A stretch of 64,000 nt of DNA from sequence record NC_014260.1. One strand, given 5' to 3'. This DNA comes from Escherichia phage IME08. Every line of letters begins with the position of its first letter. Positions within the stretch are counted from its first letter, which is position 1. Of this stretch, positions 28,625 to 37,801 are shown one piece after another. Both the position numbers and the translations under genes were made by a program. The notes under the pieces are model-generated. The model made no database searches and had not been told where the DNA came from. It saw only the letters and a program-made list of their open reading frames with translations.

Positions 28625-28654
28625 ATAGTACCACATCCATGTGGTGTTGTAAAC
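28625..28654 (-). promoter_or_regulatory. Early promoter GTTTAC-N18-TACTAT
   Basis: Minus strand GTTTACAACACCACATGGATGTGGTACTAT. Confidence 0.5.
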
Positions 28655-30777
28655 TACATTTTGAATTTATTTGGCAGAGCAGAGATATCCAAAGATGCAG
28701 CAAGGATTTCCATAGCCTCGTTGCTTTCAGAAACAGATTCACTAACCAAGAACTGTTTAAAGCCATCCATCGGACGAACTTCACCGGTTTCCATCAGATG
28801 GTCGCCGTCATAAACAGATTCACTGAGCTCTGAAGGAGACATCACAGTAGCTTCCATAAGATATTTGTGAGATACCCTATCATTCATAGCAAAAGCCGCT
28901 ACTTTATCAACCTTCATCAATAATCCGCGCGGAAGGATAATTTCTGCTTCTTCAGCGTATTCTGTAAGGTCACCAGGAGCGATAACTTTAACTGCTTCAG
29001 CACCTCGAATAACCATACCAATTTCAGCAATTCTATCCGCAGGGCCTTCAGGTGCAATTGGATTACCAAACTCGTCTTCTTCCCATTCTACCTCTTCATC
29101 GTCGACTTCACCTACATCAGATGAACTACCGCTAGCCAATTTAAACAACTCATCAGCGGAGGATAAAGAACCTTCACCACCAACAAAAACGGCTTGGTTG
29201 TCGAGGGCCATATAATTTTTACCGAATTCACCAAAGATGTTAGGCTTTAGTGAGGCGGACACAAAGTTCTTAAAGTAAAATGTTTTGTTATCGATATTAT
29301 GACGCAGAATTTTGTATGGCAAATCCTGACCACGATACAAAATAGTACCCTTAGGAAGTTTAATACCCTTAGTAAATGCCGAGTCTAAATCCTTAATCAA
29401 TCTAATAGCCGTTGTATTGTTTTCGGATTCAGGTTTACCTAAAAGGAATAAGTTCATAGGAGCATATTCAGCTGCGCAATATTCAATAATAGCATTGCTT
29501 TCGTCTTTGGTTAGGTCCTTAGGTTTAATGAGCTCGCCTGAATAAGCATATGCATCACCAATAGAATCGTTAATCAGTTTATAAACGGCTTCCATAGCGA
29601 AAGCAATTCGAGATGCCTTTTCTGAAGGGGAGCCATTAAAACGGGCACTCAGGTTATTAACAATTCTCTTAATAATATCCAGACTATTGGTAGTATTGAT
29701 TTGCGAAAGGCCGCTTAAAAGTCTATCGACTTCTGTATTAAAAAATGCCATATTTTTAGAGTAAATTTCAAACCCTTGTTTATCTCTATTAGCATAATTT
29801 AGTTTAAATTTACTATCAGTCATTAAAGCATGTGTGAGAGCAATAGTGTATCTAAAGTTAGCAAGGTCCTCGCTCTTAGATTTAAACTGAGAAGCCTGGC
29901 GCATTTTGGTAATAGCACCTTTTTTAAAGTTCTGACTAATCTGTTCAATACCTTCGTTCTCAGGGCCTTCGGCAGTGTGAACCGGTACAGAAGCTTCAAA
30001 CTCGTTATAAACCTGCAATTCTTTAGGGGACAAAGTTTCAGGCTCAGCAGTAGAATACTGCGCGGCAGCCGCCATACGACGGGAAATCTTAGTACGAGTA
30101 ATGACAGCCTTATCGGTACGTTTCTCTTCAACCTGTGCAATAGATGCCGCTACGGCTTCGACCTTACTTACGGCCTGGCCGGTTTTCTTAGAAACATACA
30201 CTTCGCCGACTTTAGAATCGACTTTGGTATAAAGGTCGGCATCAATTTCAGGCATGCCTTTGATATCTTCGATATTGGAACCACGACGTACTAAAAGAAC
30301 GTAGGTATGTTTTCCACTGAACTGGAACATGCTATCAACAACTTTAAACTTACCGCCAGTACGAGCCATCGCTAAACGTGCCAATACGCGCTGAACAGTA
30401 GGACCCTTACCTTTCATTTTCTTGGTAGGGAAACGGAATAAAACTGCATCCATTTTAAGTTTGTTTACTTGTTCGTATACAGTATCGAAAATGGTATTCA
30501 GTGTACCAAGTGGGTCAGAACCAAGGCCACCCTTAAGTTCAGCCGGAGCACCCTTGCTTGACAAACTCATTAGAATAACATGAATGTATTTGTCGCCTGG
30601 CTTAACCATTTTAATAGCGTCTCCTTGAGACGCATAAGATACCATACGAGCAACCAGGTTATCATTACCTGGTGCATGGATAGAGAAAATCTGTGGAATA
30701 CCGGAACCCGGTTTAAGATTTGTTACTGGATAGTTTTTAGCGGAATCACTATCAAAAACCTCGTTTAAATTTTCCAT
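28654..30777 (-). CDS. Alt-family mono-ADP-ribosyltransferase paralog 1
   Basis: 707 aa; conserved N-terminal roughly 240 aa shared with neighbour; ART-like motifs YRGQ, FVSAS, EEAEI. Confidence 0.8.
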   Translation of the reverse strand: MENLNEVFDSDSAKNYPVTNLKPGSGIPQIFSIHAPGNDNLVARMVSYASQGDAIKMVKPGDKYIHVILMSLSSKGAPAELKGGLGSDPLGTLNTIFDTVYEQVNKLKMDAVLFRFPTKKMKGKGPTVQRVLARLAMARTGGKFKVVDSMFQFSGKHTYVLLVRRGSNIEDIKGMPEIDADLYTKVDSKVGEVYVSKKTGQAVSKVEAVAASIAQVEEKRTDKAVITRTKISRRMAAAAQYSTAEPETLSPKELQVYNEFEASVPVHTAEGPENEGIEQISQNFKKGAITKMRQASQFKSKSEDLANFRYTIALTHALMTDSKFKLNYANRDKQGFEIYSKNMAFFNTEVDRLLSGLSQINTTNSLDIIKRIVNNLSARFNGSPSEKASRIAFAMEAVYKLINDSIGDAYAYSGELIKPKDLTKDESNAIIEYCAAEYAPMNLFLLGKPESENNTTAIRLIKDLDSAFTKGIKLPKGTILYRGQDLPYKILRHNIDNKTFYFKNFVSASLKPNIFGEFGKNYMALDNQAVFVGGEGSLSSADELFKLASGSSSDVGEVDDEEVEWEEDEFGNPIAPEGPADRIAEIGMVIRGAEAVKVIAPGDLTEYAEEAEIILPRGLLMKVDKVAAFAMNDRVSHKYLMEATVMSPSELSESVYDGDHLMETGEVRPMDGFKQFLVSESVSESNEAMEILAASLDISALPNKFKM

Positions 30778-30780
30778 TAT

Positions 30781-32865
30781 TTACCCTTGGATGAATTTTT
30801 CTGGGATGTCATAGAGGTCTATGCATGAAGCCAAAAGAGGCAGTACATCAAACCGTGTAGATTTGACAAATGAATCAAAAGATACAGGGCTTTCGGAAGT
30901 ATCGAAGTCATCTTGATATACGACCAACTCGCCGGTTTCCATTAGTACGTCACCATCATACACCACAGATTCTTGAAGCTCATCTGTCGTCATAACTTCA
31001 GCTTGGATGAGTTTTGTATTATTAGATGTTGTTCCGTCATTATTAGAAGCATCTGTTATTTTATTAACTTTGACCATCAATCCGCGCGGTAGAATAACTT
31101 CAGCTTCTGTTGCTATTCCGAGACTTCCTGGATATACAACATTGACTTTATGAGCCCCATCAATCGCCCATCCTATTTGAACTTTAACGTAATCAGGATT
31201 TTCTTTATACGCTCTTATTTCATTAGGATTAATAGTTATTCCTTCTTCATTTTTATCGACTGTCAATTCATCGCGAACTTCCGGTTCTAAAAGACCAATA
31301 CCAGCGTGTGTAACACCAAATCGTCCAAAAATGATAGGGGTTAAAGAAGTAGATACAAAATTTCTGAAATAGAACACTTTATTTTTAACTAGTGCTTCGT
31401 ATATAGGAGCAGTCATACTCTGTGCACGATAAACTGTGATGCCTTCTGGTATACGGTCACCGTTTTCAAAAGCAGAATCCAAATTATTGACTGCAGATTC
31501 AATAGATTTTTCGTTCATTACATCATAGTTATGAGGATTATAGCGTCCTAAAAGAAGATTATTGATGTCTGTATATCCAGAACCACAATATTCTCTGATG
31601 CCGCGCTTTTGTGATGGGGTATATTTAGAGCCCTCACGAGCAATAGTAATATCGACCATAATACCGCCGCCCACACCAGCAAAACTATATACGCGTTTTT
31701 TAATGAATTTGGTCTTGGCTGCTTTCCACTTGGACTCGGTCAATTCATTCCAGAGGTCGTCGGGTTGGCCTTTACGAGTTTTGTTATGCTGGGCCAACCA
31801 TTCGCCTTTGTATTCTTCGAAAACGGTATTAATAACAGAGGCATATTTTTCTAGAGCTTTAACAGATGTCAAAGGTTCGTTTTTGATGGCTGTAAGAATT
31901 TTCTCTTTAATTTTCTCTTGGATTTCACCTATACCATGAAGAGGAAACATTTTATAATCGTAATGCAACTCTTCAGCAGTGCCTTCGGCTACTATATTAG
32001 CCACCTTATTTTTAGCCGCAGGAGAATTGTTATTAGTAACCATTTCCTGAGCCTCAGGGATTAATGGAGCTGTTGCCGGTTTATTAAAATCTACGGCAGT
32101 TGCTTCATATTTCTTAAACAGTTCACTTTCATTACGATAAGATTCTAACGATTGACTTGCTGCAATGGCACGACGAGAAATCTTAGTCTTGGTTATAACC
32201 ATTTTATCAGTGCGACGTTCTTCAACTTTAGCAATACTGCCGGCAATAGCAGTTTCTTTAGTAACCTGCACACCTTCTTTTTTAGAAATATAAACTTCAC
32301 CGACATCAGAATCTACCTTAGTGTATAATTCGGCATTAATTCCTGGCATACCTTTGATATCTTCGATATCAGCTTGTTTACGAACTACTAAGATATAAGT
32401 ATGTTTACCAGTAAATTGGTACATAGCCGGAACTACTTTAAAACGTCCACCGGTTTTCTGTGCTACCAAACGTTGGATAATACGTTGGACAATAGGGCCT
32501 TGTCCTTTCATTTTCTTGGTAGGAAAACGGAACATGATGGCATCCATACGAAGCTTTTTAACTTGTTCGAATACTACGTCGAAAATGGTATTAATGGCAT
32601 CAATAGGAGTAGGGCCTAAGCCGCCTTTAAGTTCAGCAGGAGAACCTTTAGCCGAAAGGCTCATAAGGATAACGTGGGCATATTTGTCACCTAATTTAAC
32701 TTGTTTAATGGCATCGCCTTCAGAAGCGTAGGACACCATACGCGCCACTAATTGAGACTCTACGTCTCCAATCTTCCAAATCTGTGGTACTTTAAGTTTA
32801 GGGTTCAAGTTTACTGTAGGCAGTGTGCCTTCGGACTCAAACACTTCATTTAATTGTTCGGTCAT
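30781..32865 (-). CDS. alt: Alt-family mono-ADP-ribosyltransferase paralog 2
   Basis: 694 aa; motifs YRAQ, FVSTS, TEAEV; adjacent to DNA ligase gene region as T4 alt. Confidence 0.8.
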   Translation of the reverse strand: MTEQLNEVFESEGTLPTVNLNPKLKVPQIWKIGDVESQLVARMVSYASEGDAIKQVKLGDKYAHVILMSLSAKGSPAELKGGLGPTPIDAINTIFDVVFEQVKKLRMDAIMFRFPTKKMKGQGPIVQRIIQRLVAQKTGGRFKVVPAMYQFTGKHTYILVVRKQADIEDIKGMPGINAELYTKVDSDVGEVYISKKEGVQVTKETAIAGSIAKVEERRTDKMVITKTKISRRAIAASQSLESYRNESELFKKYEATAVDFNKPATAPLIPEAQEMVTNNNSPAAKNKVANIVAEGTAEELHYDYKMFPLHGIGEIQEKIKEKILTAIKNEPLTSVKALEKYASVINTVFEEYKGEWLAQHNKTRKGQPDDLWNELTESKWKAAKTKFIKKRVYSFAGVGGGIMVDITIAREGSKYTPSQKRGIREYCGSGYTDINNLLLGRYNPHNYDVMNEKSIESAVNNLDSAFENGDRIPEGITVYRAQSMTAPIYEALVKNKVFYFRNFVSTSLTPIIFGRFGVTHAGIGLLEPEVRDELTVDKNEEGITINPNEIRAYKENPDYVKVQIGWAIDGAHKVNVVYPGSLGIATEAEVILPRGLMVKVNKITDASNNDGTTSNNTKLIQAEVMTTDELQESVVYDGDVLMETGELVVYQDDFDTSESPVSFDSFVKSTRFDVLPLLASCIDLYDIPEKFIQG

Positions 32866-33090: not shown

Positions 33091-34596
33091 TTATAGTCCA
33101 GTTTGAGACCAATCACCGAATACATCTTCAAATGTATCAGCTTCTGTTTTATCGAAACGCCAACCTTTAATGATTGGAAGGAAAATACCTACAGTATCTG
33201 TACGTCCTTTAGAATGAACCCAACCATTACATTCACAGTCAGCAATACGTCCAATCAACTTACCTTCACGAGCTTGTTTCATAAGAAGTTCACGGTCTAA
33301 ATCAGGACGGTCTTCCAATGGAATCAATACCTTTTTACCTGATTTATCTTTCTTATGGGTGGTATCTTTAAAGCCTGAACCACAGTCACTTGTAATTCGT
33401 CGACAACGTGATACCAACTCGACCCCACCTAGTTTGTTAGGGTCCTTCGAGTGTTCATAATAACCTACTACTTCTAAAGCGATATCGATTACTTCTTTGA
33501 ACTTGATAAGATTCTTAGAACGGCGGTTTTCCCAGTAGGAGTCCATGTTCTTAAGGATAATGCCTTCCAGACCTTGGTCGACATATTTTTTATAAACGAC
33601 TTTAGCTTCTTCAAGATTATTAACCCATTGCGTTTCGATAGGCTCGACACGTGTAAAGCCTTCAGCCATTTGTACTAATGCCGCTAAACGAACATCGTAT
33701 TTTTGACCTTTAATTTTGCCTTCAGAATAAACTTCATCCAGTGGAACAAAGTCCCATGCCTGTAATACCATACCATCGGCTTCAGCCGGAGTAATAGTTC
33801 CTTGAAGAGCCTTGTTAGCCAAGCCGTTTGAAGTAGAACGATCAGCGACAGTTTGGAATTCCTTAGCCTTACTTAATTCAGGAAGTTCCTCATCAAACAT
33901 ACTAAACAAATCATTAGATGCTTTAGGTTCTACTTTAGGAGTATGGTAAACTAATTCACCATCAATCATAACCCCATTAGGATGGCGTTGTCGAGCTTCT
34001 TCGGTCATTTTAATAAGTTCGGCTGCAAGCTTAGTAAGCCCTTGATATTCATTACCACCACGAGTAAGGAATGTCACCCCATCGTTACGAACTTCGGCAA
34101 AACAACGAGCACCGTCAGCTTTTAATTGAGCAAACGCTGGCCATTTAATATTTTTCTTAATTAAAGCTTCATCATAAGAACTAGCTAACATTTGAGGTTG
34201 TTCAGGGATTAAACCTTTCCAAACCTTGTTAGCAATAGAAATCGATGCACCGCATTCAAGGTCACGCATCATTACACGACGTAATACCTCGGCATCCGAG
34301 GCCTTAGCATCAGCAATGATTTGAGCCAGTTCTTCAATAGCCGCATTACCCGTAATCTTACGGGTGGCTAATGTGAACTCTGCGAAATCAAGAAGGTCTT
34401 CAAGAGTAATCATACCAAAGGATTGAGACGTAAATCCAGGTTCTGGCCACTTTTTAATGCCATAGTTTAAACGACGGGTATAAGCCATACGATAAACACG
34501 TTTCAGAAGCTCATCGTCCTTTTCACGAGCAATAATGGCTTCTTTAGCTTTAGTAGAATCAATAGCAGCAATTTCGTTTAAGATATCTAAAATCAT
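33091..34596 (-). CDS. 30: ATP-dependent DNA ligase gp30
   Basis: Matches recalled T4 ligase; KADGARC adenylation motif; start at MILDILNEIA. Confidence 0.93.
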   Translation of the reverse strand: MILDILNEIAAIDSTKAKEAIIAREKDDELLKRVYRMAYTRRLNYGIKKWPEPGFTSQSFGMITLEDLLDFAEFTLATRKITGNAAIEELAQIIADAKASDAEVLRRVMMRDLECGASISIANKVWKGLIPEQPQMLASSYDEALIKKNIKWPAFAQLKADGARCFAEVRNDGVTFLTRGGNEYQGLTKLAAELIKMTEEARQRHPNGVMIDGELVYHTPKVEPKASNDLFSMFDEELPELSKAKEFQTVADRSTSNGLANKALQGTITPAEADGMVLQAWDFVPLDEVYSEGKIKGQKYDVRLAALVQMAEGFTRVEPIETQWVNNLEEAKVVYKKYVDQGLEGIILKNMDSYWENRRSKNLIKFKEVIDIALEVVGYYEHSKDPNKLGGVELVSRCRRITSDCGSGFKDTTHKKDKSGKKVLIPLEDRPDLDRELLMKQAREGKLIGRIADCECNGWVHSKGRTDTVGIFLPIIKGWRFDKTEADTFEDVFGDWSQTGL

Positions 34597-34606
34597 AATC
34601 ACCTCA

Positions 34607-34885
34607 TTAGTCATGGATTCTATTATAAGCCACATCGGCCAAAAGCAAGTCTAATCGCTTATGATAAGAGAACACAAATCTCATTCGCCCGTCAGATTTA
34701 ATTTTGGACATAAAATGGACATAAATGAATCCCTGTTCGACGCATTCGCGCCAAACAGGATGGTCTTTAGCCGGATTTACATCAAATGAGTAATCATGAT
34801 TCACATGACGAATAAACTGGTTTACATGACCATAATCCATTGTAGTGGTAGGACCATAGTCTGAAATTGTATGAACTACAAACAT
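34607..34885 (-). CDS. Hypothetical protein (30.1-like)
   Basis: ORF, start adjusted to avoid 32-nt overlap. Confidence 0.45.
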   Translation of the reverse strand: MFVVHTISDYGPTTTMDYGHVNQFIRHVNHDYSFDVNPAKDHPVWRECVEQGFIYVHFMSKIKSDGRMRFVFSYHKRLDLLLADVAYNRIHD

Positions 34886-34886
34886 A

Positions 34887-35525
34887 TTAACCTCGAGCAA
34901 TCCATTCAACTGCGGCATTATTACGAAGGGATTCGATTGCTGCGATATCGTCCCATGAATTAACCTTTACGGCTAAATTAGGTTTAAAGTCACGTTCACC
35001 ACGAGCTAACCAATAAACTTGGATATCCATGAGAACATTAGATGCTGCATCGCAGTGGTGAGCCAAATCATCAACATAAAACTTAATACGTTTACCGTAT
35101 GTATTTTTAGCTCTTATGAACAAGTCTTCTTTTGATTCTGAATGACCACACATCAGAATCTCCTTGAATGCGCCAGGGAACAAAGCATTCAAATTGAATT
35201 GTCTATTCAGCAGGGCATCAATTGAGTCGCCTAGCGCAGTCACGGCTACAAAATCGAAGTCTTTTTTGAGCTTGTTGATATGTTTTAATGCGTCCATGTA
35301 AGGAGACAGATAACGAATAAAATCCGACTGATTATATTTCTCGATTAAACGAGCGCCCAATTCATTATCACAATTAAACAGCTCGCCTGGAGATAAGAAA
35401 CGTTCGTCCTGAATCATATTCAAAATATGTTCTAAAGGCAAATTATATTTCTGTGCGAAATAAGGCAAGCCGGACTGCCAACTTAAACATACTCCATCGA
35501 TATCTGTTAAGATAACTGGTTTCAT
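34887..35525 (-). CDS. HAD-superfamily hydrolase-like protein (30.2-like)
   Basis: N-terminal ILTDIDGV matches HAD motif I (DxDG). Confidence 0.5.
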   Translation of the reverse strand: MKPVILTDIDGVCLSWQSGLPYFAQKYNLPLEHILNMIQDERFLSPGELFNCDNELGARLIEKYNQSDFIRYLSPYMDALKHINKLKKDFDFVAVTALGDSIDALLNRQFNLNALFPGAFKEILMCGHSESKEDLFIRAKNTYGKRIKFYVDDLAHHCDAASNVLMDIQVYWLARGERDFKPNLAVKVNSWDDIAAIESLRNNAAVEWIARG

Positions 35526-35989
35526 AATAAATCTCTCAATTTGTTTAGGATGTCGATAAACTCTTTTTCAGTTAGTATTGTATCACATTCTGTAAGGTGG
35601 CTTGCCATCGAATGCTTTAAAACTTTACCTTTAGTGGCTTGTAACGCATCGCGGAATCCTTTGTTCTGGAGCGCTGCTTCAAAATACGCACTTTCGTAAA
35701 GCTCTTTCCACGCTGTGGAATATCTTGAAAACGGAGTTCCAAGCCAGAACAACGTACCACGGTCCTGAGCTCTAGCATAAGCTCGTCCAGCTTGCTGAGC
35801 GGCCAACCCGGACATCCCAAATATACGTCTTTGTTGTTCAACATTTTTCACCTTACACCCTTGGAGGAATCCTTCGAGTCCACCAAATTGGATACCATCC
35901 ATAACGAAAGGCCATTTAGCAAAGTTACTTAATGCGCATGATGGCCACGGAAAGTTGCTTCTGATTTCTAACTCAGACATCTTTGACAC
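35522..35989 (-). CDS. NADAR/YbiA-like (DUF1768-type) domain protein (30.3-like)
   Basis: SNFxxWPF...GxxFxxxEgxxQ pattern typical of YbiA/NADAR family; assignment from motif recall only. Confidence 0.5.
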   Translation of the reverse strand: MSKMSELEIRSNFPWPSCALSNFAKWPFVMDGIQFGGLEGFLQGCKVKNVEQQRRIFGMSGLAAQQAGRAYARAQDRGTLFWLGTPFSRYSTAWKELYESAYFEAALQNKGFRDALQATKGKVLKHSMASHLTECDTILTEKEFIDILNKLRDLL

Positions 35990-36185
35990 TTACTACATCA
36001 ACGTTTGCCCAATGTCCATAACTAGGTAGACGGTCTTTAATAGATAATCCACCGTCAGATTTCAGCATTTTAATTGTTTTAGTATATGGTTCAATATTTC
36101 GGGCCCATGGACTCCCGTCTGTTACGCGATAAGTCACTTCGACCATTTCCGTACCTAATAATTTCTGAATCAATTTCTTAACCAT
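35973..36185 (-). CDS. Hypothetical protein
   Basis: 70 aa ORF in operon context. Confidence 0.4.
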   Translation of the reverse strand: MVKKLIQKLLGTEMVEVTYRVTDGSPWARNIEPYTKTIKMLKSDGGLSIKDRLPSYGHWANVDVVSVKDV

Positions 36186-37116: not shown

Positions 37117-37145
37117 ATAATAACACAACCTGTACCAAAGTAAAC
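37117..37145 (-). promoter_or_regulatory. Early promoter GTTTAC-N17-TATTAT
   Basis: Minus strand GTTTACTTTGGTACAGGTTGTGTTATTAT. Confidence 0.5.
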
Positions 37146-37589: not shown

Positions 37590-37616
37590 CTTTTTTAAAG
37601 ATTTAGAAACAAAAAT

Positions 37617-37634
37617 GGGACTCCGAAGAGTCCC
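37617..37634 (-). terminator. Rho-independent terminator
   Basis: GGGACTC-TTCG-GAGTCCC followed by ATTTTTG on minus strand. Confidence 0.6.
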
Positions 37635-37639
37635 ATAAC

Positions 37640-37801
37640 TTATGCCTGAGGCTTACCAAAGCAAGCAGCATCTGCACGCAATACTGCACGAGCACGAGCT
37701 TGAAGCTTATCAACTACCTGATTGATACGCTTGTTGGACGCACGCTTGTAACCAGCGCGTTTAGAGGTACCGTCAACTACTTTAACTTCTTTCTTGGCCA
37801 T
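37640..37801 (-). CDS. Small basic protein (53 aa; 30.9-like), not in ORF track
   Basis: Own translation MAKKEVKVVDGTSKRAGYKRASNKR...; directly followed by terminator. Confidence 0.4.
   Translation of the reverse strand: MAKKEVKVVDGTSKRAGYKRASNKRINQVVDKLQARARAVLRADAACFGKPQA

What the first reader, a model, noticed from the sequence alone, without database searches (positions are those of the whole stretch)
34887..35989. HAD-like hydrolase and NADAR/YbiA-like gene pair next to the ligase and Alt genes
Adjacent early ORFs carry an HAD motif I (ILTDIDGV) and an SNF.xWPF-type NADAR/YbiA-like signature. NADAR-family enzymes have been linked to reversal of nucleic-acid ADP-ribosylation, so together with the two Alt paralogs and the Rnl/Pnk RNA-repair genes this may be part of a counter-defence toolkit. 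The family assignment rests on motif recall only.
Basis: inference. Interest (0 to 1): 0.45.

Follow-up and report, generated by a model that had tools for sequence, protein, structure and literature searches.

The report
T4 genes 30.2 and 30.3 (adfN)

Summary
Both ORFs and both motifs are at the stated coordinates, on the minus strand of a Dhakavirus-like T4 relative.

**Gene 30.3 (35522..35980, 152 aa)**
- It is 88% identical to T4 gp30.3 and matches Pfam PF08010 at 1e-66.
- The family profile reaches E. coli YbiA (hhalign 94.7%).
- An AlphaFold model (pLDDT 95) matches the NADAR structures 2b3w, 8bau and 8bat and nothing else meaningful.
- Catalytic E36 and K43, the phage-type H123 and the C-terminal helix are all present.
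- T4 gp30.3 is published as AdfN, a NADAR ADP-ribosylglycohydrolase that removes ADP-ribose from guanine in DNA and counters DarTG1 (Nat Commun 2025).

**Gene 30.2 (34887..35525, 212 aa)**
- It has all four HAD motifs: D8/D10, T96, K132 and D152/D153.
- It leans towards 5'(3')-deoxyribonucleotidases. The substrate is unknown, and I found no paper on it.

**The pair**
- The adjacency is T4-group synteny, not a demonstrated functional unit.
- The pair is absent around distant gp30.3-type NADARs and is split in an Aeromonas phage.
- Nothing found here links either gene functionally to Alt, Rnl or Pnk.

Verdict: interpretation supported, already known, low interest.

The parts
35522..35980 (-). 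[quoted passage not shown] The mechanical ORF call begins at the GTG at 35989.
   Evidence: Pfam PF08010, E = 1.4e-66. 88% identity to T4 gp30.3. hhalign to YbiA 94.7%. AF2 pLDDT 95.1. The top Foldseek hits are 2b3w, 8bau and 8bat.
35906..35932 (-).
   Evidence: L17, S18, N19 and F25 are invariant in 66 homologues. The stretch aligns to YbiA FSNFAAWPI.
35873..35875 (-). Codon GAA for E36, the catalytic glutamate. It corresponds to T4 AdfN E36 and PnNADAR E43.
   Evidence: Invariant in 66/66 sequences. The E36A mutant of T4 AdfN loses activity (PMC11825919).
35852..35854 (-). Codon AAG for K43, the phosphate-binding lysine. It corresponds to T4 AdfN K43 and PnNADAR K50.
   Evidence: K in 64/66 sequences, R in the other 2. 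Literature.
35612..35614 (-). Codon CAT for H123, the last-strand histidine that defines the phage gp30.3 subfamily. YbiA-type NADARs have Glu here and DarT1-linked NADARs have Asp.
   Evidence: Invariant in 66/66 sequences. The model places it in strand 120-122/123. Literature.
34887..35525 (-). Gene 30.2 orthologue: a HAD-superfamily, C1-capped, DxD-type phosphatase of 212 aa. Substrate unknown.
35490..35513 (-). HAD motif I, ILTDIDGV. D8 is the nucleophile and D10 the general acid/base.
   Evidence: D8 and D10 are invariant in 66 close and 66 distant homologues.
35238..35240 (-). HAD motif II threonine, T96.
   Evidence: At least 90% conserved. It lies at the end of strand 91-97 in the model.
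35130..35132 (-). HAD motif III lysine, K132.
   Evidence: Invariant in both alignments.
35067..35072 (-). HAD motif IV, D152-D153 (Mg2+ ligands).
   Evidence: Invariant in A3. D153 is at least 90% conserved in the distant set. It lies at the end of strand 147-152.
34607..34885 (-). Context: gene 30.1 orthologue (DUF3045). The probable start is the ATG at 34885.
   Evidence: Pfam PF11243, E = 6e-16, with the match starting at residue 12 of the mechanical ORF. WG01 annotates a 279-nt gene.
33091..34596 (-). Context: gene 30, ATP-dependent DNA ligase.
   Evidence: PF01068, E = 1.4e-23. T4 synteny.
35973..36185 (-). Context: gene 30.4 orthologue. It overlaps the start of 30.3 by 8 nt.
   Evidence: phrog_2042, E = 6e-32. 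Junction sequence.

Best explanation
The two ORFs are the orthologues of bacteriophage T4 early genes 30.3 and 30.2. They sit in the conserved block alt - 30 (DNA ligase) - 30.1 - 30.2 - 30.3 - 30.4 ... rIII - 31.

**gp30.3 is AdfN.**
- It is a stand-alone NADAR-fold N-glycosidase.
- When the host toxin DarT1 ADP-ribosylates guanine bases in the replicating phage DNA, AdfN hydrolyses the ribosyl-guanine bond. This releases ADP-ribose, restores the base, and lets the phage replicate in DarTG1 hosts.
- This allele keeps the catalytic Glu36 and Lys43, the phage-type His123 and the C-terminal helix that the inactive RB69 allele lacks. It is therefore predicted to be active.
- Basis: the activity is inferred from the T4 orthologue. 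The residues and the fold are shown here.

**gp30.2 is a separate enzyme.**
- It is a Mg2+-dependent HAD phosphatase with a helical C1 cap.
- The DxD motif makes it a phosphotransferase or phosphatase rather than a dehalogenase.
- The cap implies a small-molecule substrate.
- My best guess is a (deoxy)nucleoside monophosphate, making it an NT5C-like nucleotidase that tunes nucleotide pools. This step is inferred and weakly supported.

**The adjacency** reflects lineage synteny and shared early transcription, not a demonstrated two-enzyme pathway.
For: **Identity and synteny**
- The window is about 94% identical at the nucleotide level to Dhakavirus phages.
- Gene order matches the T4 annotation.

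**gp30.3**
- PF08010 at 222.9 bits.
- 88% identical to T4 gp30.3, aligned end to end with no truncation.
- E36 and H123 are invariant and K43 is present in 64/66 sequences.
- A profile search finds 4583 relatives. Some also match PF08719, and JGI names some YbiA/DUF1768.
- Profile against PDB YbiA: E = 1.5e-3. hhalign against YbiA: 94.7%, E = 6e-8.
- AF2 pLDDT 95. The only meaningful Foldseek hits are 2b3w, 8bau and 8bat.
- Published work: T4 gp30.3 removes ADP-ribose from DNA in vitro, is necessary and sufficient for DarTG1 resistance, and E36A and K43A impair it (PMC11825919). Its in-vitro guanine-ADPr hydrolase activity is in PMC11125620. The equivalents of PnNADAR residues E43, K50 and E125 are in PMC11543638.

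**gp30.2**
- 74% identical to T4 gp30.2.
- D8, D10, K132, D152 and D153 are invariant and T96 is nearly so.
- AF2 pLDDT 92.7.
- Foldseek TM = 0.65-0.71 to 2jao, 4mum and 3bwv.
- 21 of 66 distant relatives match Pfam NT5C, best E = 4e-10.
- The motif I region aligns DvDGvlvkWqsgL to cdN MDGVLADFESGL.
Against: - No biochemistry or genetics was done on this allele. 12% of gp30.3 residues differ from T4.
- gp30.2 itself reaches no Pfam HAD family threshold. NT5C scores 13.4 bits against a cut-off of 24.8, E = 0.074.
- T4 AdfN does not rescue DarT1 toxicity in uninfected E. coli and needs an unidentified T-even factor for full activity. The simple stand-alone-enzyme picture is therefore incomplete.
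Confidence: 0.85

Rival explanations
1. gp30.2 and gp30.3 form a functional two-enzyme module. Either the HAD phosphatase is the unidentified T-even factor that T4 AdfN needs for full activity, or it processes the ADP-ribose-derived product released by the NADAR.
For: - The genes are translationally coupled, with an ATGA overlap.
- They lie directly adjacent in most T4-like loci examined, down to about 42% gp30.3 identity.
- They have similar distributions in phage genomes: 1509 and 1446 records.
- The literature reports an unknown T-even-specific potentiating factor.
Against: - 51 of 79 viral loci with gp30.3-type NADARs have no gp30.2 within 4 kb. In two loci the ligase follows 30.3 directly.
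- Unrelated insertions of 0.7-1.25 kb separate the genes in six loci: L019, L020, L035, L036, L047 and L080.
- In Aeromonas phage 50AhydR13PP, 30.2 stays beside the ligase while the NADAR is about 60 kb away, beside ribonucleotide reductase.
- Nearly every gene in this block is equally tightly packed, so the overlap is not specific to this pair.
- No paper in the searched library mentions gp30.2.
Confidence: 0.07
2. gp30.3 reverses ADP-ribosylation made by the phage's own transferases (Alt, ModA, ModB) on host proteins or RNA. This would explain why it lies near the alt genes.
For: - It lies within about 3 kb of two Alt paralogs.
Against: - Every NADAR activity reported in the papers read here is hydrolysis of a base- or N-glycosidic linkage. 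T4 gp30.3 has a clear genetic phenotype against DarT1.
- The Aeromonas phage keeps Alt next to the ligase but places the NADAR elsewhere.
- I found no direct test of gp30.3 on arginine-ADPr, so this is not formally excluded as a second activity.
Confidence: 0.05
3. gp30.3 is a YbiA-type metabolic N-glycosidase acting on reactive riboflavin-pathway intermediates, not on DNA.
For: - YbiA 2b3w is the best structural and sequence match in the PDB.
- One gp30.2 homologue is auto-annotated as FMN phosphatase YigB, which would fit a riboflavin theme.
Against: - The residue that defines the YbiA subfamily, the last-strand Glu, is His in all 66 family members.
- The T4 orthologue acts on ADP-ribosylated DNA and gives DarTG1 resistance.
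Confidence: 0.03
4. gp30.2 is a HAD enzyme with a non-nucleotide substrate, for example a sugar phosphate, phosphoglycolate or pyrophosphate. It would be an auxiliary metabolic gene unrelated to nucleic-acid metabolism.
For: - 13 distant relatives match the generic HAD_2 family and 11 match the generic Hydrolase family.
Against: - NT5C is the only specific Pfam family that is recurrent among relatives, at 21/66. It is also the only Pfam or PDB sequence-level hint for the protein itself.
- The genomic neighbourhood is nucleic-acid and nucleotide metabolism: ligase, dCMP deaminase and Pnk.
Confidence: 0.35

Closest known systems
T4 gp30.3 = AdfN (anti-DarT factor NADAR), Nat Commun 2025 (PMC11825919); Pfam PF08010 Phage_30_3
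   Same: - 88% identical over all 152 residues.
- Same genomic position.
- E36, K43, H123 and the C-terminal helix are all present.
- Same predicted fold.
   Different: Only allelic differences, 18 substitutions. Activity was not tested for this allele.
DarG1 / DarT1-associated NADAR antitoxins (BC4488 subfamily; e.g. Geobacter lovleyi NADAR, 8bat)
   Same: - Same fold: Foldseek probability 0.96, TMq 0.62.
- Same chemistry, hydrolysis of ADPr-guanine.
- Conserved Glu and Lys.
   Different: - No N-terminal extension.
- His instead of Asp in the last strand.
- Not encoded next to a DarT toxin.
- The T4 protein does not neutralise DarT1 outside T-even infection.
E. coli YbiA (2b3w), N-glycosidase of riboflavin intermediates; Pfam NADAR PF08719
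   Same: - Best PDB match: Foldseek E = 1.4e-4, TM = 0.67, and hhalign 94.7%.
- Shared xSNFxxxP and E..Q..K motifs.
   Different: - 19% identity.
- Last-strand Glu replaced by His.
- Different physiological substrate.
T4 gp30.2 (NP_049815, 'hypothetical protein')
   Same: 74% identical over residues 1-194, with the same position between 30.1 and 30.3.
   Different: T4 carries an extra C-terminal tail of about 85 aa that is rich in aromatic residues and proline. The tail is absent here (212 aa against 278 aa).
5'(3')-deoxyribonucleotidases cdN/mdN and the bacterial NT5C-like protein 3bwv (Pfam PF06941, HAD superfamily)
   Same: - HAD Rossmannoid core plus a four-to-five-helix C1 cap.
- DxDGV motif followed by an aromatic residue at +8 and SGL.
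- 21 of 66 distant relatives match NT5C.
   Different: - 13-17% identity.
- The protein itself is below the Pfam NT5C threshold, 13.4 bits against 24.8.
- Substrate untested.

Membership tests
NADAR superfamily, phage gp30.3/AdfN subfamily | Significant match to the family's curated profile (Pfam PF08010 Phage_30_3) | tested here: met
   222.9 bits against a cut-off of 36, E = 1.4e-66, covering profile positions 2-138 of 138.
NADAR superfamily, phage gp30.3/AdfN subfamily | Detectable homology to canonical NADAR/YbiA proteins | tested here: met
   hhalign of the family profile against E. coli YbiA gives probability 94.7%, E = 6e-8. hmmsearch against PDB 2b3w gives E = 1.5e-3. Family members are co-annotated with PF08719.
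NADAR superfamily, phage gp30.3/AdfN subfamily | [quoted passage not shown] | tested here: met
   The AF2 model (pLDDT 95.1) has small strands at 3-5, 25-27, 30-32, 76-79, 82-85 and 120-122 around helices. The top three Foldseek hits are 2b3w, 8bau and 8bat, and the next hit has E > 4.
NADAR superfamily, phage gp30.3/AdfN subfamily | Catalytic Glu and phosphate-binding Lys (T4 E36 and K43; PnNADAR E43 and K50) | tested here: met
   E36 is present in 66/66 sequences and K43 in 64/66. The numbering is the same as in T4.
NADAR superfamily, phage gp30.3/AdfN subfamily | Histidine in the last strand, replacing the YbiA Glu and the DarG1 Asp | tested here: met
   H123 is invariant in 66/66 sequences. 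Literature definition.
NADAR superfamily, phage gp30.3/AdfN subfamily | Intact C-terminal helix (lost in the inactive RB69 allele) | tested here: met
   Aligned to the last residue of T4 gp30.3. The model has helix 138-151.
NADAR superfamily, phage gp30.3/AdfN subfamily | Hydrolysis of guanine-linked ADP-ribose on DNA, and protection from DarTG1 | not testable with these tools
   Shown experimentally only for the T4 orthologue (PMC11825919, PMC11125620).
HAD superfamily phosphatase (gp30.2) | Motif I DxDx(T/V), with a nucleophile Asp and a +2 acid/base Asp | tested here: met
   D8-I-D10-G-V. D8 and D10 are invariant in the close and the distant alignments.
HAD superfamily phosphatase (gp30.2) | Motif II Ser/Thr, motif III Lys, motif IV acidic pair | tested here: met
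   T96 is at least 90% conserved. K132 is invariant. D152 and D153 are invariant. Each lies at the C-terminal end of a core strand of the model or at the start of the following helix.
HAD superfamily phosphatase (gp30.2) | Rossmannoid core with a C1 cap inserted after motif I | tested here: met
HAD superfamily phosphatase (gp30.2) | Match to a curated HAD-family profile above threshold | tested here: not met
   The only Pfam hit is NT5C at 13.4 bits (cut-off 24.8), E = 0.074. NCBIfam gives nothing. Superfamily membership therefore rests on the motifs, the fold and transitive hits.
NT5C 5'(3')-deoxyribonucleotidase family (gp30.2) | Family-level sequence membership and nucleotide substrate | tested here: inconclusive
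   The direct hit is sub-threshold. The profile against 2jao gives E = 0.11. 21 of 66 distant relatives match NT5C, best E = 4.2e-10. Structural similarity is no better than to other C1 HADs. The substrate cannot be tested here.

The most novel reading that the evidence does not exclude
gp30.2 may be the unidentified T-even-specific factor that the literature says T4 AdfN needs for full anti-DarT1 activity. It could act either through direct partnership with AdfN or by dephosphorylating an ADP-ribose-derived product. That would make 30.2-30.3 a two-gene counter-defence cassette. The evidence here does not exclude this, but it weakens it: the two genes are separable in an Aeromonas T4-like phage, and gp30.3-type NADARs outside the T4 group lack gp30.2.
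Probability: 0.06. Interest if true: 0.55.

Novelty: already known. Interest (0 to 1): 0.15.

Why it matters
- **Annotation.** Gene 35522..35980 can be named adfN, an anti-DarTG1 NADAR DNA ADP-ribosylglycohydrolase. Gene 34887..35525 can be named a HAD-family phosphatase (30.2). Most GenBank relatives still call both 'hypothetical protein'.
- **Prediction.** With an intact adfN, this phage should plaque on DarTG1-carrying E. coli.
- **Open item.** The substrate of gp30.2 is unknown, although it is conserved across more than 1400 T4-like genomes. Whether it has anything to do with AdfN's unexplained dependence on T-even infection is a cheap experiment but an unlikely link.

Tried and rejected
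1. **Single-sequence searches of the PDB.** gp30.3 gave no hits and gp30.2 gave only noise plus a weak 2jao hit. Profiles and structure prediction were needed.
2. **NCBIfam.** No family for 30.1, 30.2 or 30.3.
3. **T5 Dmp (deoxynucleoside-5'-monophosphatase) as a functional analogue of gp30.2.** hhalign probability is 2%, with similarity confined to motif I. It is not a specific relative, and Dmp itself matches no Pfam family.
4. **Domain fusions among longer gp30.2 relatives as a clue to the substrate.** No partner domains were recognised.
5. **Promoter and terminator scan of 32.8-38.6 kb.** 17 promoter-like sites were found against 16.2 expected, which is uninformative.
6. **Literature.** The term 'gp30.2' occurs in no paper of the library, and a broader search on '30.2' returned only noise.
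7. **The annotated T4 internal gene 30.3'.** The ORF is present here, but it diverges faster than the main frame and is broken in distant homologues. I do not count it as part of the feature.
8. **Dehalogenase reading of gp30.2.** Several top Foldseek hits are L-2-haloacid dehalogenases. I rejected this because of the invariant second Asp of motif I and the DD motif IV, which are hallmarks of phosphoryl-transfer HADs. This rests on established knowledge of the HAD superfamily.

Full report
**What is there**

The window is a T4-like phage. The 1.6-kb stretch around the finding is about 94% identical to Dhakavirus phages such as WG01, QL01, MX01 and Bp7.

On the minus strand lie two tightly packed ORFs. 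One spans 34887..35525 (212 aa). The other spans 35522..35989 as a mechanical ORF starting at GTG.

- ILTDIDGV is residues 5-12 of the first ORF.
- LSNFAKWPF lies near the N-terminus of the second ORF.

The realistic start of the second gene is the ATG at 35980, giving 152 aa. This matches T4 gp30.3 and the annotated WG01 gene.

The gene junctions are typical for T4:
- The 30.4 stop and 30.3 start overlap by 8 nt.
- The 30.3 stop and 30.2 start overlap as ATGA.
- The 30.2 stop is 1 nt from the 30.1 ATG.

Comparison with the T4 annotation shows complete synteny: alt, 30 (DNA ligase), 30.1 (DUF3045), 30.2, 30.3, 30.4-30.8, rIII, 31.

- an ATP-dependent DNA ligase;
- two tandem Alt paralogs, 40% identical and both PF03496;
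- Pnk, Rnl1, dCMP deaminase and Alc further along.

**Gene 30.3 is a NADAR, specifically AdfN**

Sequence evidence:
- Pfam PF08010 (Phage_30_3) matches at 222.9 bits, E = 1.4e-66.
- The protein is 88% identical to T4 gp30.3 over its full length.
- A profile built from seven family members finds 4583 proteins. Several also carry the Pfam NADAR domain PF08719, and JGI names several 'YbiA (DUF1768 family)'.
- A 66-sequence profile hits the PDB entry for E. coli YbiA, 2b3w, at E = 1.5e-3.
- The same profile aligns to YbiA in hhalign with probability 94.7%, E = 6e-8.

Structural evidence:
- The AlphaFold2 model is very confident, with pLDDT 95.1 and pTM 0.90.
- Its only meaningful Foldseek hits in the PDB are three NADAR structures: YbiA 2b3w (E = 1.4e-4, TM = 0.67), Phytophthora NADAR with ADP-ribose 8bau, and the Geobacter lovleyi DarT1-associated NADAR 8bat. 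Everything else has E > 4.

Residue evidence:
- E36 is invariant in 66/66 sequences, and K43 is present in 64/66.
- H123 is invariant. [quoted passage not shown] YbiA has Glu and DarG1 has Asp at this position.
- The C-terminal helix, whose loss inactivates the RB69 allele, is intact.

**This gene's function is already published**

LeRoux and colleagues (Nat Commun 2025, PMC11825919) mapped DarTG1 resistance of T-even phages to gene 30.3 and renamed it adfN. They reported that:
- it is necessary and sufficient for counter-defence;
- the purified protein removes ADP-ribose from DarT1-modified DNA;
- E36A and K43A impair it;
- it does not counter the thymine-specific DarTG2.

Cihlova et al. (Toxins 2024, PMC11125620) independently showed guanine-ADPr hydrolase activity for T4 gp30.3 in vitro. 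The assignment of gp30.3 to the NADAR superfamily goes back to de Souza and Aravind, as cited.

The established target is host DarT1 modification of guanine in phage DNA. Nothing found here connects the enzyme to the neighbouring Alt transferases, Rnl or Pnk beyond shared early-region synteny.

**Gene 30.2 is a HAD phosphatase of unknown substrate**

Direct family searches are nearly silent:
- phrog_420 is a family of unknown function.
- The Pfam NT5C hit is sub-threshold, E = 0.074.
- NCBIfam gives nothing.

The protein is 74% identical to T4 gp30.2 over residues 1-194. T4 has an additional tail of about 85 aa that is absent here.

Evidence for the HAD superfamily:
- In a 66-sequence alignment the four HAD catalytic motifs are conserved. 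D8 and D10 (motif I), K132 (motif III) and D152/D153 (motif IV) are invariant, and T96 (motif II) is at least 90% conserved.
- D8, D10 and K132 remain invariant, and D153 at least 90% conserved, in a much more divergent set with 20-43% identity.
- The AF2 model (pLDDT 92.7) shows a Rossmannoid core with a helical C1 cap at residues 16-86.
- Foldseek gives 125 PDB hits at E <= 1e-3, with HAD-superfamily enzymes filling the listed top hits.

The DxD motif and the DD motif IV indicate phosphoryl transfer rather than dehalogenation. A C1 cap generally goes with small-molecule substrates. Both statements rest on established knowledge of the HAD superfamily.

Hints towards a nucleotidase:
- The only sequence-level hints for the protein itself are NT5C and cdN. 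In that alignment W16 aligns to the cdN aromatic residue that follows motif I.
- Deoxyribonucleotidase structures give the best TM-scores on the target side, 0.63-0.71.
- An exhaustive profile search found 1202 cluster representatives. Of 66 distant ones, 21 match Pfam NT5C (best E = 4e-10), 13 match HAD_2 and 11 match Hydrolase.

The term 'gp30.2' occurs in no paper of the searched library. A few GenBank records already label the homologue 'putative phosphatase', 'HAD-like hydrolase' or '5'(3')-deoxyribonucleotidase'.

**Is the pair a functional unit?**

Points in favour:
- The genes are translationally coupled.
- They have similar distributions in phage genomes: gp30.3 in 1509 records and gp30.2 in 1446.
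- T4 AdfN is reported to need an unidentified T-even factor for full activity.

Points against:
- Of 79 IMG/VR loci encoding gp30.3-type NADARs, only 25 have gp30.2 within 4 kb. All 25 also have the T4-type ligase downstream, except one locus that ends inside 30.2.
- In six of those 25, insertions of 0.7-1.25 kb separate the two genes.
- In two loci the ligase follows 30.3 directly, with no 30.2.
- 51 loci have neither the ligase nor gp30.2.
- In Aeromonas phage 50AhydR13PP (Straboviridae), 30.2 stays immediately upstream of the ligase and near Alt. The NADAR sits about 60 kb away, next to ribonucleotide reductase.

The adjacency is therefore best read as inherited gene order within one early transcription block. 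I give the 'gp30.2 potentiates AdfN' idea about 6%.

**Verdict**

Both folds are confirmed, and the counter-defence role is confirmed for the NADAR through its characterised T4 orthologue.
- Novelty is 'already known'.
- The residual unknown is the substrate of gp30.2.
- Interest is low, 0.15.

Noticed in passing
window 35617..35844 (-): A 75-aa ORF in the +1 frame inside gene 30.3 corresponds to the T4-annotated gene 30.3'. It is 62% identical to the T4 version, against 88% for the main frame. It is broken or much shorter in more distant gp30.3 genes, so it is probably not a conserved coding gene.
   Followed up: partly
window 34887..35525 vs L001:7475-8311: T4 gp30.2 (278 aa) carries a C-terminal tail of about 85 aa that is rich in aromatic residues and proline. 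This phage's 212-aa allele lacks it. Family members range from 196 to 347 aa, so the tail is a variable appendage of unknown role.
   Followed up: partly
window 28654..30777 and 30781..32865 (-): Two full-length Alt-type ADP-ribosyltransferase paralogs lie in tandem, 40% identical and both PF03496. T4 has one alt plus the small alt.-1 and alt.-2 genes, which its annotation describes as a duplication of the first part of alt.
   Followed up: partly
L083:2122-2571 and L084:2989-3690 (Aeromonas phage 50AhydR13PP, NC_055746): In this T4-like phage the gp30.3 NADAR is next to an endonuclease and ribonucleotide reductase. gp30.2 remains immediately upstream of the DNA ligase and near the Alt genes. 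The pair is therefore separable.
   Followed up: yes
database proteins P0013, P0014, P0019, P0021: Several sequenced T4-like coliphages carry truncated or fragmented gp30.3 genes of 86-109 aa: SV76, UGJNEcP4, NR1 and RPN226. By analogy with the truncated RB69 allele, they may be naturally DarTG1-sensitive.
   Followed up: no
L085:1674-2108 (phage WG01): The closest relatives differ from the window by a 222-bp insertion. WG01 annotates two tandem 213-nt genes there (ORF207 and ORF208), which looks like a duplicated 30.4-like gene immediately upstream of 30.3; I did not compare the two sequences.
   Followed up: partly
window 37615..37636 (-) and 37117..37144 (-): A strong terminator-like hairpin (9 pairs followed by a T-run) lies just after the small ORF 37640..37801. 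A promoter-like site (TTTACT-16-TATTAT with an upstream TG) lies ahead of gene 30.7. Together they may delimit the transcription unit containing 30.7 to 30, but the promoter scan overall was at chance level.
   Followed up: no
window 34885, 34596, 35980: The mechanical ORF starts are too far upstream for three genes. Gene 30.1 probably starts at the ATG at 34885 (92 aa). The ligase probably starts at 34596 (MILDILNEIA, like T4). Gene 30.3 probably starts at 35980.
   Followed up: yes
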